This document shows, piece by piece, positions 4,527-22,461 of a stretch of 36,387 nt of DNA; position 1 is the stretch's first letter, and each line of letters opens with the position of its first letter. Source of the stretch: Candidatus Woesearchaeota archaeon (lineage in GTDB: Archaea; Nanobdellota; Nanobdellia; Woesearchaeales; GW2011-AR4); assembly GCA_002686855.1 (NCBI GenBank), contig NYYQ01000012.1, forward strand, positions 1 through 36,387. The letters are read 5' to 3'. A program made the position numbers and the translations under genes. The notes beneath the pieces are model-generated. The model had not been told where the DNA came from. It did not search any database and saw only the letters and a list, made by a program, of their open reading frames with translations.

Positions 4527-6941
4527 TTACAAATCAACCACAACTTCATCATCTATATTAGAATCTTCTTTTAGCTTCTCAAAAACTATCTCTTCCGCAT
4601 TTGTTGTTGCGTATAAATCATCTTTCATTAATTCAAAGTCTTTTGCATTGATTTTTCCTTTGGCTAAAACTTTCTTAACTGGTTTGTTCAATGATAAGCT
4701 TTTTGCGGATTTTGCTTTTCTTACTTCCTGCAAAACAAAAACAAAGAAATCACCTGCTTTCTCTGCTTGTTCATCAATCATGTCCAAAGATGGCCATTTT
4801 GAAATATGAATGCTCTTATCTTTTTCATACTTTTTAAAATAATGTTGATATAGCTCTTCTGTTATAAAGGGCGTTATAGGAGCCATTAGTTTCATTATTG
4901 ATAATAAAGTATGATGCAAAGCATATTGAGCAGATAATCTTGCTTCCTTGCCCCTTTTATCTGCATTATATAATCTATCTTTAATTATCTCAAGATAATT
5001 ATCTGCAAAAGTATGCCAAAAAAACTTGTCTGTTTCCAGTTTAGTATGTGAATATTCGTAATTCATGAAATTCTCTGTTGATTCCTTAATTAACCTACTC
5101 AATTTAGATAATATCCATCTATCCATTGCTTCTAATTTTTTAGGTTTTCCTAATTTATAATCAACAAGATGCATAAAAGCAAACTTAGAAGCATTCCATA
5201 TCTTTGTTGTAAATCTCATTCCTGTTACTAAATCTTTTTCCTGGAATGGTAAATCATCTCCTAACCTGGAACCAGCTGCCCAGAACCTCAAAGCATCTGC
5301 AGAATATTTTTTAATCATCTCTCTAGGATCAACAATATTTCCTTTTGATTTTGACATCTTCTTACCATGGGGATCTAAAGCCCAACCAGAAATCATAGCA
5401 TTTTTCCAAGGAATGTTCTTATGATGAAAATAGCTCTTAACTACTGTGTTAAATAACCAAAATGTAATTATATCATGAGCCTGAGGCCTTAAACTCATAG
5501 GAAGTAATTTTTTAAATATTGGTTTACTTTTAAACAGCTCAGCTGCAATGTCCGGTGTTAAAGAAGAGGTTGCCCAAGTATCCAAAACATCTTTTTCCCC
5601 TATAAACTCATTTGAGCCGCATTTGCATTTTTTATTCGGTTTATCAACCAAAGGATCAACTGGCAGTTGTTTTTCATCTGCTACTAGAATTTCAGGGCAT
5701 TTTTTGCAATACCAAACTGGAATTGGAATTCCAAAATGTCTTTGTCTGGAAATATTCCAATCCCATTTTAAACCATCAATCCAATTTTCATACCTGGCCT
5801 TCATATGCTCAGGATACCATTTTATTTTTCTTCCATATTTAATAAAATCTTTTTTTAGGTCTAAATATTTGATAAACCATTGGTCTGTTGTTAATATTTC
5901 AATATCTGTCTCGCATCTTTCATGAACATTTACAACATGGTGTATGGGCTCTATTTTCTCTATTCTTCCTTCTTCTTCTAAAGCCTTAATAACAGCTTCT
6001 CTTGCTTTTTTAACATGCAATCCTTTAAATTTCCCGGCCTTCTCATTCAATGTTCCATCTTTATTCATTATCTCTATAGGTTCTATGTTAAACTCTTCCA
6101 TCCACTTTACATCATCCATATCTCCAAAAGTGCAATGGTAAACAATTCCAGAGCCAAATTCCATATCAACATCCTTATTTGCTTCTATCGTAACTGTTCT
6201 ATCAGAAAAAGGAATTTTTGCTTTTGCTCCGATTAATTTGTTAAATCTCTTATCATCAGGATGAATATGTATTGCAACACATGCAGGAAGCAATTCTGGC
6301 CTTGTTGTTGCAATTGATATTTGCTTATTTTTACTTGTATCAAATTTAATATAAACTAAATTGCTGTCTCTCTCAGAATCTTTCATCTCAACTTGAGCTA
6401 TTGCAGTTTGACATTCAGGACACCATACAAAAGGCGCTCTTTTCCTGTAAATTCTTCCCATTTTATGCAACTCTAAAAAAGACCTTTGGGAGATTATTTG
6501 AGAATGTTCATTAATTGTCGTATAGAAAACATCGTAATCAGCGCTTACCCCTATTCTCTTCCAATCATAAATAAAATCAGGTCTTATTTCTTCTAAAGTT
6601 CTAAGGCACAGCTCTACAAACTCTTTCCTTTTCATTTTCTGGCCTTTGACATTTTTTATCTTTTCTATCATCCTTTCTGTAGCCAAGCCATTATCATCCG
6701 TACCAAAGGGATAAAAAACATTTTTACCCAGCATTCTTTGGAATCTTGCAACAAAATCTTCCTGAGAATAAGAAAAACTATGGCCAAGATGCATTTTGCC
6801 GCTTACTGTAGGTGGAGGAGTATCTACTGAGTAAACTTCTGCTTTGCTGTCTGGATCAAAAGCATATATTTTCTCTTTTTCCCAATACTTTAGCCATTTC
6901 TCTTCTGCTTCATAGGCATTATAACGCTTTGACAATTCCAT
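4527..6941 (-). CDS. valS: Valyl-tRNA synthetase (archaeal type)
   Basis: DTPPPTVSGKMHLGH (HIGH), ATTRPEL editing motif, DWNISRQR, RPQAHDII, KMSKS. Likely start MELSKRY at 6941, not the TTG at 7073. Confidence 0.95.
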   Translation of the reverse strand: MELSKRYNAYEAEEKWLKYWEKEKIYAFDPDSKAEVYSVDTPPPTVSGKMHLGHSFSYSQEDFVARFQRMLGKNVFYPFGTDDNGLATERMIEKIKNVKGQKMKRKEFVELCLRTLEEIRPDFIYDWKRIGVSADYDVFYTTINEHSQIISQRSFLELHKMGRIYRKRAPFVWCPECQTAIAQVEMKDSERDSNLVYIKFDTSKNKQISIATTRPELLPACVAIHIHPDDKRFNKLIGAKAKIPFSDRTVTIEANKDVDMEFGSGIVYHCTFGDMDDVKWMEEFNIEPIEIMNKDGTLNEKAGKFKGLHVKKAREAVIKALEEEGRIEKIEPIHHVVNVHERCETDIEILTTDQWFIKYLDLKKDFIKYGRKIKWYPEHMKARYENWIDGLKWDWNISRQRHFGIPIPVWYCKKCPEILVADEKQLPVDPLVDKPNKKCKCGSNEFIGEKDVLDTWATSSLTPDIAAELFKSKPIFKKLLPMSLRPQAHDIITFWLFNTVVKSYFHHKNIPWKNAMISGWALDPHGKKMSKSKGNIVDPREMIKKYSADALRFWAAGSRLGDDLPFQEKDLVTGMRFTTKIWNASKFAFMHLVDYKLGKPKKLEAMDRWILSKLSRLIKESTENFMNYEYSHTKLETDKFFWHTFADNYLEIIKDRLYNADKRGKEARLSAQYALHHTLLSIMKLMAPITPFITEELYQHYFKKYEKDKSIHISKWPSLDMIDEQAEKAGDFFVFVLQEVRKAKSAKSLSLNKPVKKVLAKGKINAKDFELMKDDLYATTNAEEIVFEKLKEDSNIDDEVVVDL

Positions 6942-7077
6942 AACATCATAGAAAAAAGTTTTGTTTTTAAAGGTTGTGGGATATATCAAGAAAATTTTAT
7001 ATAGAGATTGTAAAAGGGAGTAATAAAAATGACATATCACTTCCGCTTCGTGGATTTTATGAGGGTGTTTCAATAAG

Positions 7078-9193: not shown

Positions 9194-10684
9194 ATGGAAA
9201 AATTAAGCATAGAAGCTATGGCCACATTCTGCAAGAAAAAGGGTTTCGTTTATCCCAGTGCAGAGATTTATGGTGGCCTTGCGGGATTCTGGGACTTTGG
9301 CCATTTAGGCGTAGAACTAAAAAATAACATCAAAAATGAATGGTGGAACTACCATGTTAAACAAAGAGAAGATATTATGGGCATTGATGGTAGCATTATA
9401 ACACACCCAAAAGTATGGGAAGCATCTGGCCATGTTGAAAACTTTGAAGATGTGATGTTAACATGCTCAAAATGCAATGAAAAAACCAGAGCTGATCATT
9501 TAATTGAAGAAAAACTAAAGACAAATGTAGAAGGCCGGAGTGTTGATGAAATCAACAAAATAATAAAAAAAAATAATTTAAAGTGCCCAAAGTGCAACTC
9601 TGATTTTAAGGAATTAAAAAAATTCAGTTTAATGTTAAAAACAAGCATAGGTCCTTTAGAAGATAAAAGCTCTATTTCTTACTTAAGGCCTGAAACTGCC
9701 CAGTTAATTTTTGCTAATTTTAAGCTAGTCTCAGATAACGCCCGTTTAAAGTTGCCATTTGGCATAGCTCAAATAGGAAAAGGTTTCAGAAATGAAATTT
9801 CTCCAAGAGACTTTTTATTTAGATGCAGAGAATTTGAAATGATGGAGATAGAATACTTTGTGCATCCGGATAAAGCAGAAAAATGTCCCTCCATTAAGGA
9901 AGTGGAAAATGAAGAACTAAATTTCCTGACATCAGAGATGCAGCAAAAAAAACAAGAACCAAAAGAAATGAAAGTCAAAGATGCTCTAAAGAAAAAACTA
10001 GTTTCAGAATGGCATGCTTACTGGCTTGCTACAGAACAAAAATGGTTTACAGATTTAGGAGCTAAACCAGAAAACTTTAGAGTAAGACAACACCTAAAAG
10101 AAGAAAAAAGTCATTATGCTACAGACACATGGGACCTTGAATATAATTTTCCTTTTGGCTGGAAAGAATTGCAAGGCATAGCAAACAGGACTGATTTTGA
10201 CCTAAAACAGCATATGAAATTTTCCGGTAATGACCTAAGCATTTTTGATGAGGAAACAAAGAAAAAAATTATTCCATATGTTATAGCAGAGCCTTCACAA
10301 GGTGTAGAACGCGCTTTCCTGGTTTTCATGTTCGATTCTTACACTTATGATAAAAAAAGGGGAAATGCTGTTTTAAAGCTGCATCCTAAGTTAGCTCCAG
10401 TAAAAGTTGGTATTTTTCCATTAGTTAATAAATTAGACAATGAAGCTAAAAAAGTCTATGATTTGCTAAAATCAGATTTTAATAGCATTTTTGATAAAAG
10501 TGGAAGCATAGGGAGAAGATATGCAAGAGCAGATGAAATTGGTATTCCTTACTGCATTACAATAGATTTTGATAGTTTAAAAGATAAGAAAGTTACAGTT
10601 AGAAACCGCAATGACACAAAACAAATAAGAGTAAAAATAAATGATTTAAAGGAAACTATGGGTAAATTAATTGATAATCCATAA
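9194..10684 (+). CDS. glyS: Glycyl-tRNA synthetase (alpha2, archaeal/eukaryotic type)
   Basis: EIYGG, YLRPETAQ, motif 2 FRNEISPR…REFEMMEIE, ELQGIANRTDFDL, motif 3 EPSQGVER, anticodon domain SIGRRYARADEIG. Confidence 0.95.
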   Translation: MEKLSIEAMATFCKKKGFVYPSAEIYGGLAGFWDFGHLGVELKNNIKNEWWNYHVKQREDIMGIDGSIITHPKVWEASGHVENFEDVMLTCSKCNEKTRADHLIEEKLKTNVEGRSVDEINKIIKKNNLKCPKCNSDFKELKKFSLMLKTSIGPLEDKSSISYLRPETAQLIFANFKLVSDNARLKLPFGIAQIGKGFRNEISPRDFLFRCREFEMMEIEYFVHPDKAEKCPSIKEVENEELNFLTSEMQQKKQEPKEMKVKDALKKKLVSEWHAYWLATEQKWFTDLGAKPENFRVRQHLKEEKSHYATDTWDLEYNFPFGWKELQGIANRTDFDLKQHMKFSGNDLSIFDEETKKKIIPYVIAEPSQGVERAFLVFMFDSYTYDKKRGNAVLKLHPKLAPVKVGIFPLVNKLDNEAKKVYDLLKSDFNSIFDKSGSIGRRYARADEIGIPYCITIDFDSLKDKKVTVRNRNDTKQIRVKINDLKETMGKLIDNP

Positions 10685-11157: not shown

Positions 11158-11205
11158 TATTAATCGAAAGTAATTTAAATAAAATCTATTTCTGAAAAAG
11201 GTTAA

Positions 11206-11352
11206 GGGACTGTAGCTCAGACTGGGAAGGGAAACCCTTCGTCTAAGGAGAGCACATGCATTAAAAGTGCAGCTAATTACGCTGAAGACGTAGGTGATTG
11301 GTACAGTCACGCTGGCCAACCTGAATCCTGGGTTCAAATCCCAGCAGTCCCA
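11206..11352 (+). tRNA. tRNA-Phe(GAA) with three non-canonical introns (11225-11246, 11256-11277, 11297-11325)
   Basis: Removing the three inserts gives a 74-nt cloverleaf with all four stems fully paired: GGGACTG TA GCTC AGACTGGGA GAGC A CTACG CTGAAGA CGTAG GTGTC CTGGG TTCAAAT CCCAG CAGTCCC A. TATA (TTTAAATA, 11174-11181) upstream and a T-run downstream. Confidence 0.88.
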
Positions 11353-11359
11353 CCTTTTT

Positions 11360-13528
11360 TTAACCCAAGGAAGTTGTCAATATAGTTGAAGCAATGATAT
11401 TAAACAACAACATTACAACGAACGAGATAAAGCAATAAAGCAATGTGCTCCTTATCATATTAACTCCTAACTGATATTTCTCATTTAATTTGTCAGAGCC
11501 ATTCTCAATGCCATTTACCAGTATTGTCAATATGTAGGTTATCTGGACAACATACAAGCCAACTATTATTTGGAAAAAGTATGTTGGAATTCCATCTCCA
11601 AACAATCCCATCATTCCAATTCCCTGGGTTGCTGTATCACCGCCAGTAACATTCTGCAATTGTGACCCTAACTTGCCTAAAATTGTAGTAACCATTGATG
11701 TTATTCCAATAACAATTCCTGCTATTGCTGGTGTTAAAAACTTAATTTGGGAGTTCATTGAAGAAATGATGTCAGCCATCAAATCCTTTAGCCTTTCATT
11801 GACACTATGTATTTCCTTTATGTATCTGGAAACATTTGTCAGGGCTTGAGCGGCAATAACAGGACCTTTTTTAACTGATTGAACCAAAACTTTCATAGAG
11901 CTTTCTATCAAATTAGAAGGAAAACTTATTAAAGCTCCATGTGCTGAATCAAAAATTGATTGTTTAACACTCATTCCTAATTTTCTTATATTTGTACTTA
12001 CAAGTTTAAAGAAACTTCCAGAAACAGTACCTTCCATAGTATTTGCAACCTTACCAAAAGCTATCTCTGCCGGTAATCCATCACCCAGCCTATTCCCCAA
12101 TTGAAACAAACCTGATGCAAACTCTAATTCCAGCTTTTTTGCTCTTTCCCTTATCTTCATGACATTCTTTGACCTTAAATGATAAAATATTCCCAAGCTT
12201 AAGCCAAAAGCTAGCGTAATCAATAAGCTTAATATTGCTGCGCCAAGGCCATATGGCCCTATAAGTTCACCAGTTGCTTGACTTTCCCTATATTCCAGCA
12301 AACAGAACTTCTTTCCGCATGAACTTGACAAATCCATTTCGCCAAAGCCAATATCTGGAAAATCAATGCTGTGCAGCAAAACAGGGCTAATTCCAAAAAT
12401 AAATAATACTGCTCCTATAAAAATACTAAAGAAAATAGGGTTCATTAAAATTTCAATATTTCCTAATTTCATTATAACATTCTTGTATTTCTTAAGCTCT
12501 GGATTTTCCTCTGAGATATCTGTCTCGCCATAACCAGTAGGCCTTCTTGACAAAACTGATTTTCCCAGATAATAAACACTAATCGGCAAAGCCACATTAT
12601 ACAAAGCAGCTATATGAAACCATCTGATTCCTTCCATAAAGCTAACCATTAAAGGTAGTATAACCAACCCCAAAATAGGAAGAATTATGCCCAGCATATG
12701 CAGCATTGTTATGGGGCTTTGCAAATTATGTGCATAATGCAGCATCTTCTCATAAGTCTCGCTTAAAATAACATCTAATGATTTATCTAAAGCATTCAAT
12801 CTTCTCTCTTCACTTCCCTCATACAAAGATGATTCTATTAGATGAAAAGCTTCAATAAACTCAAAATTCCATTTCTTCCATGTCTCAAGATACATGTCAA
12901 GACTTTCCTTAACGCTTGCATATTTTTCAGTCTCGATATCCCACAGCACTTTCTTTAGATCTAGGCTTAACGGCGGTGATAAATGGTCGGCAGCAAACTC
13001 AATCGCATTTTCTATGTTACTTGTATGCCTCATATATGTTACCACATAAAATATGCATAGCACCATCTGATTGCTTGCCTTTAAGCGCCAGTTATTAGCA
13101 ATATAATTTGGCAAATTTCCCAAAGGTCTTATCAGAGAGAGTCCTATTATAAAGAAAAATAAAATGAAGAATGTAGATTGAAAAATAAGAAAAGAGAACA
13201 ATGAGCCCAATAAAATAATAAAAATCGGGGCTAAAAATGAAAAGGAGATTGCTCCAGAAGGGGTAATGTTCAAATGCGCTATATTGATATTCTCAATAAT
13301 TCTAGGTTCTTTTTTCTTATCTGGTTTTATATGCAATATTTTTTCGCTCAAGCCGCATAATTTCTCGTACAAAGTCAAATGTCTTGGCATATAAGCTTCC
13401 TTAAATTCTTCATACTCTCTTGATGAAACTTTCGGCTGGTAAACTCTGGCGCCTAGTTCTTTCTCTATCTGCTTCTTATATAACTCTACCAGATCCTTCA
13501 TCCTCTGTTTTTCACTCTGAGTAGGCAT
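11360..13528 (-). CDS. Polytopic membrane platform protein, TadC/GspF/ArlJ-like (two T2SSF-like domains)
   Basis: Multiple TM segments; two soluble T2SSF-like segments (LKASNQMVLCIFYVVTYMRHTSNIENAI; EFASGLFQLGNRLGDGLPAEIAF); immediately downstream of a secretion ATPase; SD GAGGTGAG upstream. Confidence 0.75.
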   Translation of the reverse strand: MPTQSEKQRMKDLVELYKKQIEKELGARVYQPKVSSREYEEFKEAYMPRHLTLYEKLCGLSEKILHIKPDKKKEPRIIENINIAHLNITPSGAISFSFLAPIFIILLGSLFSFLIFQSTFFILFFFIIGLSLIRPLGNLPNYIANNWRLKASNQMVLCIFYVVTYMRHTSNIENAIEFAADHLSPPLSLDLKKVLWDIETEKYASVKESLDMYLETWKKWNFEFIEAFHLIESSLYEGSEERRLNALDKSLDVILSETYEKMLHYAHNLQSPITMLHMLGIILPILGLVILPLMVSFMEGIRWFHIAALYNVALPISVYYLGKSVLSRRPTGYGETDISEENPELKKYKNVIMKLGNIEILMNPIFFSIFIGAVLFIFGISPVLLHSIDFPDIGFGEMDLSSSCGKKFCLLEYRESQATGELIGPYGLGAAILSLLITLAFGLSLGIFYHLRSKNVMKIRERAKKLELEFASGLFQLGNRLGDGLPAEIAFGKVANTMEGTVSGSFFKLVSTNIRKLGMSVKQSIFDSAHGALISFPSNLIESSMKVLVQSVKKGPVIAAQALTNVSRYIKEIHSVNERLKDLMADIISSMNSQIKFLTPAIAGIVIGITSMVTTILGKLGSQLQNVTGGDTATQGIGMMGLFGDGIPTYFFQIIVGLYVVQITYILTILVNGIENGSDKLNEKYQLGVNMIRSTLLYCFISFVVMLLFNIIASTILTTSLG

Positions 13529-13891: not shown

Positions 13892-16183
13892 TTATTTCAT
13901 ATTCATTTTTTTAACACTTCTTTTAAGCCATTCATTCCAGTCAAAAAATATCCTCTTGCTGTCTAAGCTGCCAACTTCATCTTTTACCACATCTGAAATT
14001 TTATGGAATTCGTCATTTGCATTAACAACAAATTCAGCTTCTAATAAATTCAGCATTTTAGATTTTTCAGCGTATTTTACTAAAGTTTCTTTTATTTTTG
14101 TTCTCAACAAAATATTGTCCCAAATAGCATCCCAGCTTCCAGCCCATTCCTTTACATTTCCCCCAATACTCTTCAGAATATCGCTTTCTCCATTAATCAA
14201 CTCATCACTCGGCTCTAATTGGTCTGTTCTAGTATCATATTTCATTAAATCCACAAAACCAGTCTCCAGTAAAGGGTCATTTTCCCAATGCTTCCTTACC
14301 TCTGTAATCTGAGTCACTCTTCTCCATCTATGAAGACCATCTGCGCTTCTTACCGGATTAGCAACAATGATAATATCTGTTGCCTTAAAACTTGTTCTTG
14401 GTACCTGTAAATCATTAACAACTCTGTCAAAAACACCATAAGGACTGTCACCATGAATTGTCCCGGCAACAACATTTGCCAATGCGCCTATCCTCATTGC
14501 TTCATACAATGCCAATGCCTCCTTTGAACGTATTTCCCCTACAATTAAAGCTGAATCTCCCATCCTTAATGTTGTTCTTATCCCTTCATCAGCAGGCACC
14601 TCCGCGCTTCCTTTTGTTAAAGCAGCAGCAACTTTCATAGGCTGTATATTATACCCTAACTTTCTCAAAGAAGATGTTGGCAGCTCTAAAGTGTCTTCAA
14701 TAGTAATAACTCTATATCTTCTCATTAATTCCACTAATAATGCTCCCAACAATGATGTTTTTCCAGCTGACCTTGTTCCTGCTACAAGCAAAGTCCTGCT
14801 GCCATCAATAATAAAACTCATTATTCCCGCAGATAAAGGACTCATCATTTTATTATGGATAAATAAAGGCAAAGTCCATGGTTTGTCTCTATGCCTTCTA
14901 AATGCAAATGAGACGCCATGAGGGTTTAATGGCTCTCCAACTGCTGCAACACGCGCATTCGCCCCTTTAATTCTAAGCTCTGTATCCAGGATAGGATTAG
15001 CCTCATCAAGAGGCCTGCCGGATATCAACCTTAATTTTGTTGCCCACGAGTCTGCTTCAGTTGGTGTTGGAACTACATTTGTCCTGCAATCCCCATAAGT
15101 TTGATGTACAATGAACATAGGCACGTCTCCCATCTGGTTATTTATTGATATATCTTGTACCTGCTCGTCCTGCAGCAAAATCTCTATTAACCCAAAACCT
15201 ACTGTGTACCTGACCAAAATATTTGTCAACTGCTCGATTTCTTGAGAAGTCATTTTTATGTTTCTATAGCCTACAAGTTCCTCAATTAAATCCTGGCCTA
15301 CATTAAAAAAAACCTGCCTCATACGGTCCGGCTCAACAAACTCGCTTCTTTTTGGCTTGTGTTCTGCCATGATTTTCCTTGCTGTGTCTAATATTTCATA
15401 TTTTTCCTCGGTTAATTTAAATTCCGGTGGCACCATATGATACAGGTATTGCACAGTGTCTGGCAGCTCAAAAATTGTTACATCTACATCCTTCCCCACA
15501 GTATAAGTCTCCAGTTCTTTAGCATCATGAGGGAAAGCAGCCATTAGTTTTGTAAACATAAAGTCCGGCCTTACAACTGGTATAAAAAAGCGCCTGTATA
15601 TTTCCCGGTCACTAACTTTATGGCCTGCAAGATATTGCTTTGCAGCTAAGATTAATTTTGTTTTTTCCAGGGTATTCATCAAATAATCAAGAATCTTGAG
15701 ATACTTCTGACTGCATTTTATGAAGTTTTCATCAGCCGCTCTTTCCACACTTATTCTTTCATCCCTTGTAATCCTTGTCAATTCCACGTAAGCTCCGATA
15801 GGGTCTGACCTTAACAAATTTGATATTATGTTCTGTACAGTAGAATACCAAGTATTAGCCCACTTTGCGCAGCTGGTGTCAGAAAGCAAAGCAGTATAAC
15901 TAAAAACATCTTTTCTTTTAGCAAGCTGGGAATATAGTTTTGCTATTTCTCTCAACAAAAATGTCTGATTAGAATCATATTCATAATTTCTCTTTTGCAT
16001 AAAGACAATTTTGGTTGCATCCCCCACCTCAATAAGCATATCGCATGTCTTTGACATAATCATTGCATCATCTTCTATAGCAGGTATATGCTGATAGTCC
16101 TCTAAATCAACAGAAAGTATTACATCATCCCCTTCCCTTATCACATCATAAGAAAAGGGCTTTTTATTATCAAACAATGCCAT
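13892..16183 (-). CDS. Type II/IV secretion ATPase (TadA/CpaF/ArlI-like) with long N-terminal extension
   Basis: LLQDEQVQDISIN, SGRPLDEANPILD, Walker A AGTRSAGKT, ITIEDTLEL, Walker B LIVGEIR, His box GTIHG. ATG at 16183. Confidence 0.9.
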   Translation of the reverse strand: MALFDNKKPFSYDVIREGDDVILSVDLEDYQHIPAIEDDAMIMSKTCDMLIEVGDATKIVFMQKRNYEYDSNQTFLLREIAKLYSQLAKRKDVFSYTALLSDTSCAKWANTWYSTVQNIISNLLRSDPIGAYVELTRITRDERISVERAADENFIKCSQKYLKILDYLMNTLEKTKLILAAKQYLAGHKVSDREIYRRFFIPVVRPDFMFTKLMAAFPHDAKELETYTVGKDVDVTIFELPDTVQYLYHMVPPEFKLTEEKYEILDTARKIMAEHKPKRSEFVEPDRMRQVFFNVGQDLIEELVGYRNIKMTSQEIEQLTNILVRYTVGFGLIEILLQDEQVQDISINNQMGDVPMFIVHQTYGDCRTNVVPTPTEADSWATKLRLISGRPLDEANPILDTELRIKGANARVAAVGEPLNPHGVSFAFRRHRDKPWTLPLFIHNKMMSPLSAGIMSFIIDGSRTLLVAGTRSAGKTSLLGALLVELMRRYRVITIEDTLELPTSSLRKLGYNIQPMKVAAALTKGSAEVPADEGIRTTLRMGDSALIVGEIRSKEALALYEAMRIGALANVVAGTIHGDSPYGVFDRVVNDLQVPRTSFKATDIIIVANPVRSADGLHRWRRVTQITEVRKHWENDPLLETGFVDLMKYDTRTDQLEPSDELINGESDILKSIGGNVKEWAGSWDAIWDNILLRTKIKETLVKYAEKSKMLNLLEAEFVVNANDEFHKISDVVKDEVGSLDSKRIFFDWNEWLKRSVKKMNMK

Positions 16184-16221
16184 TTTCAATCAACCATTTT
16201 TTTATCATTTTATTTCCATCA

Positions 16222-19200: not shown

Positions 19201-19749
19201 TTACGATGATTTCTTCTCAGGTTTCCTATCTTGGGTTACGTATACAATAAAAAATACCACTAAAACTAGTAATACTACTGATCCCACAAGTTCTCCACCG
19301 CTTGAACCGCTGAAAAAATCAGATGTTTCATCAAGCAATCCAAAAGCATCAAGGAAAATAAATGCTAGGCCAAGAAAAACTATAACCATAAACACGGTCT
19401 TCCAGCCGCCTTCCAAAAAAACACCTTCTGGTTTTTCCTGGAAAAATGACCCCACTAAAAGCAGGAAAAGCACTATTAAGAAAAGCAATACCACGAAGCT
19501 GGCTGATACCTGTGTTATGATCTCAACTAACTCTGAAGAACCAACAACAAAAAATGATATCACAAAAGCAGCTATAGAGTTAAGATTTTTCTTTGTATAA
19601 GTTTTGTCACCTATCTTCTCCACACCAAAAACTTTTGTTCTTTCCAATAACGCAAAAACAATCGTAAAAACAAGAAGGAAAGGCAACACTACATCAAAGA
19701 TACCTATACTATCAAAAAACTCCATTATATCTCTAAATGCACTGGCCAT
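19201..19749 (-). CDS. Multi-pass membrane protein, paralog 1
   Basis: GIFDVVLPFLLVFTIVFALLERTKVFG…NLNSIAAFVISF; about 5 TM segments. Confidence 0.85.
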   Translation of the reverse strand: MASAFRDIMEFFDSIGIFDVVLPFLLVFTIVFALLERTKVFGVEKIGDKTYTKKNLNSIAAFVISFFVVGSSELVEIITQVSASFVVLLFLIVLFLLLVGSFFQEKPEGVFLEGGWKTVFMVIVFLGLAFIFLDAFGLLDETSDFFSGSSGGELVGSVVLLVLVVFFIVYVTQDRKPEKKSS

Positions 19750-19859
19750 CTTTTTTAATTATTTTATTGAGTAAACTATATATAAACTTTTCGAAAATAC
19801 CTTCATAAAAAACATGGTTATAAATTTAAAAAACTTTATAAAACAGGGGAGTTTACAAA

Positions 19860-20152: not shown

Positions 20153-20719
20153 ATGCTAAATGCAAAAGAATTTGAAAAAATAAGGGAAGACTTAGCTGCT
20201 TTTGAAGCTAAAAGAGAGTCTGTAATACAAAAATCCAGGGAGATCATTAACTTATCTAAAAGAATAATTTATGCCTTGCATAGAAATGATGTAAAGACTG
20301 CTTCTTCTCTTGTAAAGGATATTGAAAAGGGGAAAAAAACCCTTACAAATGTAAGAATGGATACAAACATAAATATTGTTGCCTTGCAGGAATATGCTGA
20401 AGCCCTATGCTATTATCACTTTGTCAAAAACAAAAAAATACCAACTGCAACATCATTAAAAATTGGCAATGAAAGCTATTTGCTTGGTTTATGTGATTTA
20501 ACCGGGGAACTAGTAAGAAAAGCAGTAAATGACGTTATAAATAAAAATTTTAAAGCCGCCTTTGAAATCAAAAATCTTGTTGAGGAGATATATGGTGAAT
20601 TTCTAAAATTTAATCTAAGAAACTCTGAATTAAGAAAGAAATCAGACCAGATAAAATGGAATTTGAAGAAACTAGAAGATGTTGTTTTTGAACTAAAGCT
20701 GAAAGGTAAATTAAAATGA
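20153..20719 (+). CDS. Translin/Trax (archaeal C3PO) family RNA-binding endoribonuclease
   Basis: RESVIQKSREIINLSKRIIYALHR, ALQEYAEA, YLLGLCDLTGELVRKA, LRKKSD signatures. Confidence 0.88.
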   Translation: MLNAKEFEKIREDLAAFEAKRESVIQKSREIINLSKRIIYALHRNDVKTASSLVKDIEKGKKTLTNVRMDTNINIVALQEYAEALCYYHFVKNKKIPTATSLKIGNESYLLGLCDLTGELVRKAVNDVINKNFKAAFEIKNLVEEIYGEFLKFNLRNSELRKKSDQIKWNLKKLEDVVFELKLKGKLK

Positions 20720-22461
20720 GGACGCATACTTGTGGAGAATTAACAAAAAAAGATATAAAAAAAACTGTTTCTTTATCGGGTTGGGTTCAAAGCAGTAGAG
20801 ATCATGGGGGCATTATTTTCATTGACTTAAGGGACAGGTATGGCCTTACCCAGATAGTTTTTGACCCAAAACACAACAAAAAAAATCATGCAGAAGCTGA
20901 AAAACTAAGAAGGGAAGATGTTATTGCAGTAAAAGGCAAAGTAAGGCATAGAGGCAAAGGTCTTGAAAACCCCAATCTTAAAACAGGAGAAATAGAAATC
21001 CTTGTTGATGAATTAGAAGTATTAAGTAAAGCAGATACACCTCCCATTGAGGTAGAAAATAGAATTGATGCAAATGAAGACATAAGGTTAAAATATAGGT
21101 TTTTAGATTTAAGAAGGCCAAAGATGCAGAAACATTTGCTAGTTAGGCATCAGGCTGCTCAGGCTGCTCGTGCTTATTTGGATAAAAATAATTTTCTTGA
21201 GATTGAAACACCGATGCTTGTTAAGGCAACTCCAGAAGGCGCTAGAGATTATATTGTCCCATCACGTACAAATCCCGGCAAATGGTTTGCATTGCCTCAA
21301 AGCCCCCAATTATACAAGCAAATTTTAATGGTTTCTGGTTTTGACCGTTATTACCAGCTAGCCAGATGCTTGAGGGATGAGGATTTAAGGCAAGATAGGC
21401 AGCCAGAACATACTCAGATTGATCTAGAGATGAGTTTTGTTGAGCAGGAAGATGTCTTAAACATGGTTGAAGGGCTTTATAAGCACATGATGAAATCTGT
21501 TCTTGAAATTGATATTAAAGAAAAGTTTCCCAGAATGTCTTATGCAGAAGCAATAGATAGGTTTGGAACAGACAAGCCAGATTTAAGATTTAAGCTTGAA
21601 TTAATTGACGTAACAGATATTGTAAAAGATTCTGATTTTGAAGTCTTTAAGAAAACTGAACAGGTTAAATGCCTTGCTCCTGAAAAAGATTTTTCCAGAA
21701 AAGAACTTGACGAATATATAAATTTCTGCCAGCAGAATGGTGCAAAGGGAATGGCATGGATGCGTGTTACAAAAAAAGGCCTTGAAAGCAATATTGTAAA
21801 ATTCTTTAATCCTTCTATTCAAAAAAAATTATTGCAAAAAACAAAAGCAAAGAAAGGTGTCTTAATGTTTATTGCCGATAAGCCAGAAGCTGTTGCTGAA
21901 ATATTAGGCAAATTAAGATTAAAATTAAGTGAAGATTTGAAATTGACCAATAAAAAAGATTTCGAGTTCTGCTGGGTTTTGGATTTTCCTTTATTTGAAT
22001 GGGATGATGAAAACAGTAAATGGATGCCTTGCCACCACATCTTCACAGCTCCGAATAAAGAACACTTGAAGTTTTTGGAGAAAAACCCGGAAAAAGTTCA
22101 TGCAAACTTATATGATTTAGTCTTAAATGGTGTTGAATTAGGCTCTGGCTCAATAAGGGAAACTAATCCTGAAATTCAAAAGAAACTTTTTAAGATGATT
22201 GGCTTAAGTGATAAGGAAGCCCAAAGAAAATTTGGTTTCTTAATGGATGCTTTCAAATACGGAACTCCGCCGCATGGAGGTATTGGACTTGGCTTTGATA
22301 GAATAGTGGCCTTAATGTGCAACCATCATGACATTAGGGAAGTCATAGCCTTCCCAAAAAACAAAAACGCAGAATGCCCAATGGATGGAAGCCCTTCAGA
22401 TGTACCAGACAACCAACTCAAAGAACTTCATGTTAAAAGTGATTTGGTTAAGAAGCAGTAA
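20716..22461 (+). CDS. aspS: Aspartyl-tRNA synthetase, bacterial type with GAD insertion (probably non-discriminating)
   Basis: 581 aa; MRTHTCGEL, RDHGGIIFIDLRD, TPEGARDY, LPQSPQLYKQILM, RDEDLRQDRQPE, GTDKPDLRF, YGTPPHGGIGLGFDR. Confidence 0.95.
   Translation: MRTHTCGELTKKDIKKTVSLSGWVQSSRDHGGIIFIDLRDRYGLTQIVFDPKHNKKNHAEAEKLRREDVIAVKGKVRHRGKGLENPNLKTGEIEILVDELEVLSKADTPPIEVENRIDANEDIRLKYRFLDLRRPKMQKHLLVRHQAAQAARAYLDKNNFLEIETPMLVKATPEGARDYIVPSRTNPGKWFALPQSPQLYKQILMVSGFDRYYQLARCLRDEDLRQDRQPEHTQIDLEMSFVEQEDVLNMVEGLYKHMMKSVLEIDIKEKFPRMSYAEAIDRFGTDKPDLRFKLELIDVTDIVKDSDFEVFKKTEQVKCLAPEKDFSRKELDEYINFCQQNGAKGMAWMRVTKKGLESNIVKFFNPSIQKKLLQKTKAKKGVLMFIADKPEAVAEILGKLRLKLSEDLKLTNKKDFEFCWVLDFPLFEWDDENSKWMPCHHIFTAPNKEHLKFLEKNPEKVHANLYDLVLNGVELGSGSIRETNPEIQKKLFKMIGLSDKEAQRKFGFLMDAFKYGTPPHGGIGLGFDRIVALMCNHHDIREVIAFPKNKNAECPMDGSPSDVPDNQLKELHVKSDLVKKQ

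What the first reader, a model, noticed from the sequence alone, without database searches (positions are those of the whole stretch)
11206..11352. tRNA-Phe gene split by three introns, none at the canonical 37/38 site
Seen: half of the 147-nt gene (73 nt) is intron. Intron 1 (11225-11246, D-loop, about 18/19) forms a textbook BHB: AGAC/GTCT central helix, bulges TG^G and AA^G, inner stem GAAGGG/CCCTTC. Intron 2 (11256-11277, 27/28) has a relaxed motif (GAGC/GCTA, bulge AC^A, inner TGCA/TGCA); its removal creates the perfect CTACG/CGTAG anticodon stem. Intron 3 (11297-11325, 46/47) has TAGG/CCTG with bulges TG^A and AA^T. Established: triple-intron tRNAs are known mainly from Thermoproteales and need broad-specificity splicing endonucleases. 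Inference: the splice helices borrow D-stem and anticodon-stem bases, implying ordered refolding, and standard tRNA scans could miss this gene, making such genomes look tRNA-deficient.
Basis: partly seen in the sequence, partly recalled or inferred. Interest (0 to 1): 0.78.

Follow-up and report, generated by a model that had tools for sequence, protein, structure and literature searches.

The report
Three-intron tRNA-Phe gene, Woesearchaeota
This is a real phenylalanine tRNA gene of a tiny marine DPANN archaeon, cut into four pieces by three short protein-spliced introns; standard tRNA finders miss it, but the gene type is already known.

Summary
Window 11206-11352 holds four exons (19+9+19+27 nt) and three introns (22, 22 and 29 nt, 73 nt in all). 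Joined in a script, the exons give a 74-nt RNA. ARAGORN calls it tRNA-Phe(GAA), and its minimum-energy fold is a perfect cloverleaf.

Each splice-site pair sits in a bulge-helix-bulge (BHB) geometry that at most 1 of 20000 shuffled introns reaches.

Eight relatives carry the same gene downstream of ProRS with 0, 0, 0, 1, 1, 1, 2 and 5 introns. All 21 stem pairs hold in all nine spliced sequences, and 12 pairs show compensatory changes.

The organism is a Woesearchaeota-type MAG. At least 12 of 23 tRNA genes I could resolve in it have two or three introns. Rfam's tRNA model finds only 13 tRNA genes in the genome.

No RNA data were found. The EndA gene lies in an assembly gap; RtcB is present.

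This is a new member of a known kind (multi-intron BHB tRNA genes). This scan has reported the same phenomenon before on other Woesearchaeota DNA. The five-intron ortholog exceeds the printed maximum of three.

The parts
11174..11181 (+). TATA-like box TTTAAATA, centred about 29 nt upstream of tRNA position 1 (putative archaeal promoter)
   Evidence: Read from the sequence. The 16-nt block CGAAAGTAATTTAAAT is identical upstream of the ortholog in L011. Its function is inferred.
11206..11224 (+). Exon 1: tRNA positions 1-18 (5' acceptor strand, U8, 5' D-stem strand, D-loop up to G18)
11225..11246 (+). Intron 1, 22 nt, in the D-loop at 18/19; strict hBHBh' motif (H1 3 bp, H2 4 bp, H3 6 bp)
   Evidence: 0 of 20000 shuffles reach it. 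Introns at the same position occur in L011, L012, L128 and L129, with compensatory changes in H3.
11247..11255 (+). Exon 2, 9 nt: positions 19-27 (G19 G20 A21, 3' D-stem strand, A26, C27)
11256..11277 (+). Intron 2, 22 nt, at 27/28; relaxed motif (H2 3 of 4 pairs, H3 6 bp, no H1)
   Evidence: 1 of 20000 shuffles. A homologous intron sits at 27/28 in L012 (17 of 22 aligned columns identical, shuffle maximum 15) and has a perfect GAGC/GCTC central helix there.
11278..11296 (+). Exon 3, 19 nt: positions 28-46 (rest of the anticodon arm with loop CTGAAGA and anticodon GAA, then G44 T45 G46)
11297..11325 (+). Intron 3, 29 nt, in the variable loop at 46/47; BHB with H2 4 bp (one G.U), H3 5 bp, H1 1 bp
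   Evidence: 1 of 20000 shuffles. A homologous intron sits at the same site in L011 (23 of 29 identical, shuffle maximum 21), and introns occupy the same site in L128 and L129.
11326..11352 (+). Exon 4, 27 nt: positions 47-73 (T47 C48, T arm CTGGG/TTCAAAT/CCCAG, 3' acceptor strand, discriminator A73); CCA is not encoded
11355..11361 (+). Run of seven T, likely archaeal transcription stop
   Evidence: Read from the sequence. Its function is inferred.

Best explanation
Window 11206-11352 is the working tRNA-Phe(GAA) gene of a marine Woesearchaeota-type (DPANN) archaeon, interrupted by three archaeal BHB introns at 18/19, 27/28 and 46/47.

Inferred pathway:
1. Transcription starts near the TATA-like box at 11174-11181 and stops at the T-run at 11355-11361.
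2. The precursor of about 150 nt presents each intron's two splice sites in 3-nt bulges that flank a 4-bp helix.
3. The tRNA-splicing endonuclease EndA cuts both bulges of each motif.
4. RtcB joins the four exons.
5. The ends are trimmed and CCA is added.

Intron 2's central helix uses D-stem bases 22-25, and intron 3's uses anticodon-stem and variable-loop bases 41-44. The mature stems and the splice helices therefore exclude each other. Folding predicts that intron 1 can be cut at any stage, and that intron 3 is cut before intron 2.

Shown here: the gene structure, the motifs, conservation of the exons and the presence or absence of introns in relatives. Inferred: transcription, cleavage, ligation and the order of cleavage.
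For: 1. The in-silico spliced 74-mer is called tRNA-Phe(GAA) by ARAGORN. Its MFE is a perfect cloverleaf, and it carries U8, A14, G18 G19 G20, U33, the TTCAAAT T-loop and A73.

2. A de novo search for the fewest BHB introns that restore a cloverleaf returns exactly these three introns, with the maximum cloverleaf score of 30. With shuffled 5' gene bodies, 20 of 21 anchors gave no solution and 1 gave only a 5-intron solution.

3. The BHB geometry at the three sites was reached by 0, 1 and 1 of 20000 shuffled introns.

4. Of 32 ProRS loci examined, 8 hold a tRNA-Phe(GAA) on the same strand downstream, with 0, 0, 0, 1, 1, 1, 2 and 5 introns. MAFFT aligns the exons and shows the introns as presence/absence blocks.

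5. Across the nine spliced sequences, 21 of 21 stem pairs pair in every sequence and 12 pairs changed on both sides. The window's mature sequence is 72 of 74 identical to L011's and 65 of 74 to L018's. Intron-less orthologs score 65.8-68.5 bits against Rfam tRNA.

6. Introns 2 and 3 have homologs at the same sites in L012 and L011. All six differences in intron 3 lie in the loop or keep the helix paired.

7. No other tRNA-Phe was found in the assembly. ARAGORN calls C43:6024-6114 'Phe', but it has a perfect canonical BHB (5/4/4) that gives anticodon GAC, whereas the Phe reading needs an intron scoring 0/3/0. Two pattern searches and a hairpin scan found no second copy.

8. RtcB is present at G000:C23. 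EndA is present as one copy in 5 of 5 relatives checked.

9. Contigs from two DNA runs of other studies cover 11175-11348 with no differences.
Against: - There is no RNA evidence, so neither splicing nor expression has been observed.
- No EndA gene is in this assembly. The genome is 79% complete. The genes that flank EndA in relatives map to the two ends of contig C55, so an assembly gap is the likely reason, but that is an inference.
- Intron 2's motif is relaxed: one mismatch in the central helix and no outer helix. Its central helix has low predicted probability, 0.07-0.24.
- In the MFE of the full precursor, the 3' site of intron 2 and the 5' site of intron 3 lie inside one continuous 9-bp helix, not in bulges.
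- I could not obtain an Infernal or tRNAscan-SE score for the spliced sequence.
Confidence: 0.93

Rival explanations
1. It is a decaying tRNA pseudogene that picked up three insertions and is no longer processed into a working tRNA. The real tRNA-Phe would lie in the unassembled fifth of the genome.
For: The genome is only 79% complete. EndA is not in the assembly. No RNA data were found.
Against: - All 21 stem pairs and the universal bases are intact.
- Each insertion carries a BHB motif at the exact site.
- The gene sits at the conserved position after ProRS, with a conserved promoter-like box and a T-run.
- The closest relative keeps two of the same introns and changed acceptor pair 6-67 on both sides.
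- At least 11 other tRNA genes in this genome are built the same way.
Confidence: 0.04
2. The locus is a tRNA gene but is spliced differently from the proposed parse. One alternative is ARAGORN's tRNA-Gln(CTG) with a single 54-nt intron. Another is my solver's second-ranked parse, which gives anticodon TAA.
For: ARAGORN with introns allowed reports tRNA-Gln(ctg) i(36,54). The solver lists an alternative with anticodon TAA and an anticodon stem of 4 of 5 pairs.
Against: - The Gln model has mismatched D and anticodon stems, an odd long variable arm and no BHB at its intron.
- The TAA parse scores lower and its middle intron scores only 3/3/3.
- Only the Phe parse matches the eight orthologs, three of which have no intron at all.
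Confidence: 0.02
3. The 147-nt arrangement is an assembly artefact or a chimera of related strains.
For: The source is a metagenome-assembled genome in 78 contigs.
Against: - Contigs built independently from two other runs (X5, X7, other studies) cover 11175-11348 with 0 differences, though the two runs gave identical tables and may be one data set.
- Homologous introns lie at the same sites in other genomes.
Confidence: 0.01

Closest known systems
Multiple-intron tRNA genes of Thermoproteales (e.g. Pyrobaculum calidifontis, 71 introns in 46 tRNA genes), as described in passages of PMC4033280 and the tRNAscan-SE 2.0 preprint 10.1101/614032
   Same: Up to three short BHB introns per gene, at non-canonical positions. 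More than half of the genes have several introns. Standard finders miss them. Similar introns recur in different tRNA genes.
   Different: The lineage differs (DPANN/Woesearchaeota, about 33% GC, marine) and so does the enzyme. Thermoproteales use the heterotetrameric (alpha-beta)2 EndA with the crenarchaeal loop. The relatives here have one alpha4-like unit of 191-221 aa. The relative L011 has five introns in this gene, above the printed maximum of three.
ARMAN-2 (Candidatus Micrarchaeum) pre-tRNAs with introns at 53/54 and 59/60, and its epsilon2 EndA (PMC3239211, passages)
   Same: A DPANN archaeon with non-canonical and double introns. The T-loop sites 59/60 and 53/54 are also used in this genome (8 and 2 of 34 introns).
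   Different: tRNA-Phe here has no T-loop intron. The ARMAN-2 enzyme is a three-unit fusion, whereas the relatives' enzyme here is a single unit.
Tri-intronic nuclear tRNA genes of the red alga Cyanidioschyzon merolae (PMC3728597, passages)
   Same: Three BHB-type introns in one tRNA gene. RT-PCR intermediates there showed an ordered removal, with the more stable motifs first. That is the kind of order predicted here.
   Different: That case is eukaryotic, and the order was shown experimentally. Here the order is only predicted from folding.
DPANN tRNA sets in Kaneta et al. 2018 (PMC5829648, passages)
   Same: The paper reports more disrupted tRNA genes in DPANN lineages with alpha4-type EndAs. 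It also reports incomplete predicted tRNA sets that call for manual curation, and it included one Woesearchaeota genome.
   Different: In the passages I read it gives no gene-level description of a three-intron tRNA-Phe. Its Figure 7 and supplements, which I could not see, may hold counts of multi-intron genes for that Woesearchaeote.

Membership tests
Archaeal BHB (EndA-dependent) tRNA intron | Both splice sites lie in 3-nt bulges separated by a 4-bp helix (hBHBh'), or in a relaxed form with at least one bulge flanked by two helices | tested here: met
   Intron 1 is strict (3/4/6). Intron 3 has both bulges, a 4-bp central helix, a 5-bp inner helix and only 1 outer pair. Intron 2 is relaxed (0/3/6)..
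Archaeal BHB (EndA-dependent) tRNA intron | Removing the intron(s) restores a canonical cloverleaf with the universal bases | tested here: met
   ARAGORN calls tRNA-Phe(GAA) and the MFE is the cloverleaf. All 21 of 21 pairs are kept across nine orthologs.
Archaeal BHB (EndA-dependent) tRNA intron | The genome encodes the splicing endonuclease EndA | tested here: inconclusive
   No match to PF01974 or to relatives' EndA in this 79%-complete assembly. Genes flanking EndA in relatives map to the ends of contig C55. 5 of 5 relatives have one copy.
Archaeal BHB (EndA-dependent) tRNA intron | The genome encodes the RtcB-type tRNA ligase | tested here: met
   PF01139 matches G000:C23 at 488 bits.
Archaeal BHB (EndA-dependent) tRNA intron | Spliced RNA is observed | not testable with these tools
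   No RNA run holds the stretch, and the two RNA runs from a sample that holds the DNA laid nothing.
Multiple-intron tRNA gene (two or more BHB introns in one gene) | Two or more separate introns, each with its own splice motif, in one tRNA gene | tested here: met
   Three introns. The same solver finds three other 3-intron genes and eight 2-intron genes in the genome.
Split or permuted tRNA gene (Nanoarchaeum or Caldivirga type) | Exons encoded at separate loci or in permuted order | tested here: not met
   All four exons are collinear within 147 nt.

The most novel reading that the evidence does not exclude
Woesearchaeales tRNA genes may be at least as intron-riddled as the record Thermoproteales, with about 1.4 introns per resolved gene here. 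They also break the printed ceiling of three introns per gene: the ortholog of this gene in the closest relative has five, at 3/4, 18/19, 25/26, 46/47 and 59/60.

Yet the relatives' only EndA is a single alpha4-like unit. It is collinear with the strict-specificity M. jannaschii enzyme and lacks the lysine-rich insertion of the N. equitans enzyme, but it carries a lysine-rich N-terminal tail. If so, broad intron handling in this lineage rests on something other than the known specificity loops, such as the tail or stepwise RNA refolding. The introns also spread between tRNA genes as sequence families: the T-loop intron of L011's tRNA-Phe matches those of this genome's tRNA-Lys(TTT) and tRNA-Gly(GCC).
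Probability: 0.55. Interest if true: 0.6.

Novelty: new member of a known kind. Interest (0 to 1): 0.42.

Why it matters
For annotation, genomes of this abundant but uncultured group look as if they lack half of their tRNAs. Rfam's tRNA model finds 13 genes here and 11-23 in five relatives. The missing genes are there, hidden behind two to five introns, so estimates of tRNA-set reduction in DPANN archaea are biased unless multi-intron searches are run.

For biology, the tRNA-Phe gene next to ProRS is a natural series with 0, 1, 2, 3 and 5 introns in related genomes. That makes intron gain and loss, intron mobility and the substrate range of a simple one-unit EndA directly testable. The single gene in this window adds one more well-supported example rather than a new principle.

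Tried and rejected
- **RNA evidence.** The look-up of sequencing runs listed no RNA holder. Laying the two metatranscriptome runs (X13, X14) from a sample that holds the DNA gave nothing. This says nothing about expression either way.
- **EndA in the own genome.** PF01974, tblastn with five relatives' EndAs and a protein search all found nothing. I read this as an assembly gap next to contig C55, not as absence.
- **ARAGORN's readings.** The tRNA-Gln reading of this locus, and its 'tRNA-Phe' at C43:6024-6114, were rejected after BHB scoring.
- **First solver version.** It over-fitted, producing spurious 5-intron solutions built onto real intron-less genes. I replaced it with a fewest-introns search. 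Three anchors (C33:7252, C35:8986, C53:2270) are real tRNAs extended by a spurious 71/72 intron, and I dropped them.
- **Dropped as unreliable.** C9 (k=4), C43:5221, C43:6114 (solver parse), C32:17660 (anticodon ACA), C59 (anticodon ACT) and C77 Leu(TAG), which ARAGORN reports as '???'.
- **Unresolved.** C29:647-777, C69, C17 (at a contig end) and C27:1211-1352.
- **First spliced-alignment script.** It was too permissive on long loci, and only its L011 and L012 rows were used as leads.
- **L130 (G037).** It matched the intron 3 junction but gave no solver solution.
- **Intron 1 similarity.** Against L011 and L012 it is not above shuffles (14 of 23 and 17 of 30 aligned columns, shuffle maxima 16 and 18). 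Homology there rests on position and helix covariation only.
- **722-aa ORF abutting the gene (11360-13528, minus strand).** I checked it as a possible homing endonuclease. It looks like a GspF/T2SSF-type membrane protein instead.
- **The 'L3 loop' in PMC5829648.** A text search was not possible because the term is too short. Whether these EndAs carry that loop rests only on the HMMER alignments.

Full report
**1. The observation.**
The exons are 11206-11224, 11247-11255, 11278-11296 and 11326-11352. The introns are 11225-11246, 11256-11277 and 11297-11325 (22, 22 and 29 nt; 73 of 147 nt).

Joined in a script, the exons give 74 nt. ARAGORN calls this tRNA-Phe(GAA). Its minimum-energy fold (-28.8 kcal/mol) is the cloverleaf with 7, 4, 5 and 5 stem pairs. 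It carries U8, A14, G18 G19 G20, U33, the TTCAAAT T-loop and A73.

The unspliced RNA folds at -52.9 kcal/mol, with z = -3.1 and 0 of 200 shuffles folding as well.

**2. The splice motifs.**
I scored the BHB geometry as pairs in the outer helix H1, the 4-bp central helix H2 and the inner helix H3, with the cut after the second base of each 3-nt bulge.

| Intron | H1/H2/H3 | Helices | Type |
|---|---|---|---|
| 1 | 3/4/6 | CTC/GAG, AGAC/GTCT, GAAGGG/CCCTTC | strict |
| 2 | 0/3/6 | GAGC/GCTA with one mismatch, TGCATT/AGTGCA | relaxed, no outer helix |
| 3 | 1/4/5 | TAGG/CCTG, TTGGT/GCCAA | both bulges, weak outer helix |

Shuffling each intron 20000 times with the exons fixed reached the observed H2 and H3 in 0, 1 and 1 cases.

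BHB-like motifs under my loose filter are common: there are 69 in this 147-nt region. The weight therefore lies in the joint requirement. The same search on 21 anchors with shuffled gene bodies gave no solution in 20 and only a five-intron solution in 1.

**3. Standard tools miss it.**
- ARAGORN finds no tRNA in the window. With introns allowed it reports a poor tRNA-Gln with a 54-nt intron.
- Rfam finds nothing at gathering score. Its tRNA model sees only 11300-11352, at 16.6 bits.
- tRNAscan-SE and SPLITS were not available.

**4. The organism.**
The window is contig C12 of a 1.26-Mb assembly with 78 contigs, 79% completeness and 33% GC. It encodes archaeal proteins such as eIF2-gamma and an RFC-type ATPase.

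The closest ProRS loci carry titles of Candidatus Woesearchaeota MAGs; the best is L011 at 83% identity. DNA runs that hold the stretch are labelled marine or seawater metagenomes.

**5. Comparative evidence.**
Of 32 ProRS loci examined, 8 hold a tRNA-Phe(GAA) downstream on the same strand:

| Loci | Introns |
|---|---|
| L018, L022, L026 | none |
| L039 | one, at 37/38 |
| L031 | one, in the D-loop |
| L021 | one, at 30/31 |
| L012 | two, at 18/19 and 27/28 |
| L011 | five, at 3/4, 18/19, 25/26, 46/47 and 59/60 |

- MAFFT aligns the exons and leaves the introns as presence/absence blocks.
- Across the nine spliced sequences, all 21 stem pairs pair in every sequence, and 12 pairs changed on both sides.
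- The window's mature sequence is 72 of 74 identical to L011's. The two differences are one compensatory change in acceptor pair 6-67.
- Intron-less orthologs score 65.8-68.5 bits against Rfam tRNA and single-intron ones about 55 bits. L011, L012 and L031 are missed.
- Intron 3 is 23 of 29 identical to L011's intron at the same site (shuffle maximum 21). All six differences lie in the loop or keep the central helix paired.
- Intron 2 is identical in 17 of 22 aligned columns to L012's intron at 27/28 (shuffle maximum 15), where the central helix is a perfect GAGC/GCTC.
- Intron 1 resembles the L011 and L012 introns in position and in H3 covariation (GAAGGG/CCCTTC against GAAGAC/GTCTTC), but not above shuffles in plain identity.
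- The exon 3/intron 3 junction recurs, with up to 3 mismatches, in 5 of 301 sampled genomes of the order. That count includes this genome and one unpublished genome that I did not analyse.
- Two of those genomes, from another family (L128, L129), carry tRNA-Phe with introns at the same 18/19 and 46/47 sites.

**6. Is it the only tRNA-Phe?**
ARAGORN labels C43:6024-6114 as Phe. That locus has a perfect canonical BHB (5/4/4) at 37/38, which yields anticodon GAC with C at position 33. The Phe reading needs an intron scoring 0/3/0.

Two degenerate patterns for uninterrupted Phe halves found none in this genome, G061 or G062. Of 19 GAA-loop hairpins in the assembly, only the one in this gene has tRNA context. 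The assembly is incomplete, so a second copy cannot be excluded.

**7. The rest of the genome.**
From 38 T-arm anchors, some of which only appear after a T-loop intron is removed, the solver gave 31 solutions. Three of them are real genes extended by a spurious intron.

ARAGORN agreed on the anticodon for 24 of the remaining 28 spliced sequences. I kept 22 and dropped two with implausible anticodons:

| Introns per gene | Genes |
|---|---|
| 0 | 6 |
| 1 | 4 |
| 2 | 8 |
| 3 | 4: Phe here, Arg(GCG) on C29, Thr(GGT) on C32, Lys(TTT) on C51 |

With tRNA-Val(GAC) added by hand, that makes 23 genes and 33 introns, or 1.43 per gene, and 12 of 23 genes have several introns. The D-region parse of Arg(GCG) is uncertain.

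Intron sites among 34 introns (the 32 above plus two from the doubtful Leu(TAG) gene):

| Site | Introns |
|---|---|
| D-loop | 11 |
| 37/38 | 10 |
| 59/60 | 8 |
| 53/54 | 2 |
| 27/28 | 1 |
| 28/29 | 1 |
| 46/47 | 1 |

For comparison, the tRNAscan-SE 2.0 preprint gives 71 introns in 46 genes for the record holder Pyrobaculum calidifontis and states 'up to three' introns per gene (passages). PMC4033280 states a 'maximum of three' (passages). My full-text searches for four or five introns in tRNA genes brought only the red-alga paper PMC3728597, where those phrases count introns per site, not per gene.

**8. Enzymes.**
RtcB is present on C23. EndA is not in the assembly. The genes that flank EndA in relatives map to positions 166-1053 and 19257-19799 of the 19812-nt contig C55, so the gene probably lies in the gap beyond a contig end.

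All 5 relatives checked have one EndA over the Pfam cut-off. A protein search in 4 of them found one copy each. It is 191-221 aa long, with one N-terminal and one catalytic domain.

Its closest solved relatives are the N. equitans alpha subunit (3iey_A, E = 9e-39) and the M. jannaschii alpha4 enzyme (1a79, E = 8e-34). It is collinear with the latter apart from two single-residue gaps. It lacks six residues present in the N. equitans enzyme just before the catalytic histidine. That stretch appears to be the lysine-rich insertion described in PMC3239211 (passage). It has a lysine-rich N-terminal tail.

PMC5829648 (passages) already notes that DPANN alpha4-type EndAs go with more disrupted tRNA genes, and that incomplete DPANN tRNA sets need manual curation.

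**9. Mechanism and order.**
Intron 2's central helix uses D-stem bases 22-25. Intron 1's outer helix uses bases 11-13 and 20-22. Intron 3's central helix uses bases 41-44.

Mean pair probabilities from partition-function folding:

| Central helix of | Full precursor | Other states |
|---|---|---|
| Intron 1 | 0.46 | 0.53-0.72 in the three other states that retain it |
| Intron 3 | 0.41 | 0.35 without intron 1; 0.05 and 0.02 once intron 2 is gone |
| Intron 2 | 0.07 | 0.07-0.24 across the other states |

The prediction is that intron 1 can go at any time and that intron 3 goes before intron 2. This is inference only. [quoted passage not shown]

**10. Assembly check and RNA.**
Contigs from two DNA runs of other studies cover 11175-11348 without a difference. 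Their tables are identical, so they may be one data set. No RNA holder was listed and two RNA runs laid nothing.

**11. Verdict.**
The finding is right in observation and in nearly all of its interpretation. The gene is a new member of a known kind.

This scan has reported multi-intron tRNA genes on other Woesearchaeota DNA before, including tRNA-Phe genes with three introns and relatives with none to five. I reached the five-intron ortholog independently before reading those notes.

What goes beyond print, as far as my searches reach, is the five-intron ortholog, the intron density under a simple one-unit EndA, and the intron families shared between genes. None of these rests on this window alone.

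Noticed in passing
L011:6017-6229 (+), closest relative (ProRS 83% identical): The orthologous tRNA-Phe gene is 213 nt long and has five BHB introns: 3/4 (32 nt, 0/4/8), 18/19 (23 nt, 3/3/6), 25/26 (16 nt, 2/4/3), 46/47 (29 nt, 1/4/5) and 59/60 (39 nt, 5/4/1). The cloverleaf score is the maximum. The acceptor-stem intron's central helix uses three leader bases. The papers I read give three introns as the maximum.
   Followed up: yes
G000 contigs C29, C31, C32, C46, C48, C51, C64, C77 (outside the window): At least 11 other tRNA genes of this genome have two or three introns. Contig C77 holds a cluster of at least four intron-bearing tRNA genes within about 700 nt (9452-10136). Rfam's tRNA model finds 13 genes in the genome and 11-23 in five relatives.
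   Followed up: yes
G000 C51 tRNA-Lys(TTT), C77 tRNA-Gly(GCC), C29 tRNA-Arg(GCG), C32 tRNA-Thr(GGT); L011:6177-6215: T-loop (59/60) introns form sequence families across different tRNA genes and genomes. Arg(GCG) against Thr(GGT) scores 20 and Lys(TTT) against Gly(GCC) scores 14, against a shuffle maximum of 10. By eye, L011's tRNA-Phe 59/60 intron matches the Lys and Gly ones. The D-loop introns of Gln(CTG) and Pro(GGG) score 19. This suggests that introns spread between genes.
   Followed up: partly
G000:C43:6024-6114 (+): tRNA-Val(GAC) with a perfect canonical 18-nt intron at 37/38 but C instead of the near-universal U at position 33. ARAGORN mislabels it tRNA-Phe.
   Followed up: partly
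G000:C55, both ends (166-1053 and 19257-19799 of 19812): The genes that flank EndA in relatives sit at the two ends of this contig, and EndA itself is not assembled. Relatives' EndA is a single 191-221-aa unit with a lysine-rich N-terminal tail and none of the insertions seen in the N. equitans enzyme.
   Followed up: partly
G000:C23:14066-16891 (+): RtcB matches in two pieces (profile positions 1-53 and 49-426) about 1.5 kb apart, inside one 1021-aa open frame. This could be an intein or another large insertion.
   Followed up: no
window 11272-11280 and 11294-11302: In the MFE of the full precursor, the 3' end of intron 2 plus TAC pairs with GTG plus the 5' end of intron 3 (9 bp, three of them G.U). 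This puts one splice site of each intron inside a continuous helix that competes with both BHBs. Its role, if any, is unexplained.
   Followed up: no
window 11360-13528 (-) and 13892-16189 (-): The 722-aa ORF that abuts the tRNA gene has no Pfam match, but it sits next to GspF/T2SSF-type membrane proteins in the ESM Atlas (score 0.98, possibly its own cluster). It lies beside a T2SSE-type ATPase. Together they look like an archaeal type IV pilus-like assembly pair.
   Followed up: partly
window 4527-7073 (-), 9194-10684 (+), 20716-22461 (+): Three aminoacyl-tRNA synthetase genes (a class I Ile/Leu/Val/Met type, a class II ProRS-like type, and an AspRS type with a GAD domain) lie within 18 kb of the tRNA-Phe gene.
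   Followed up: no
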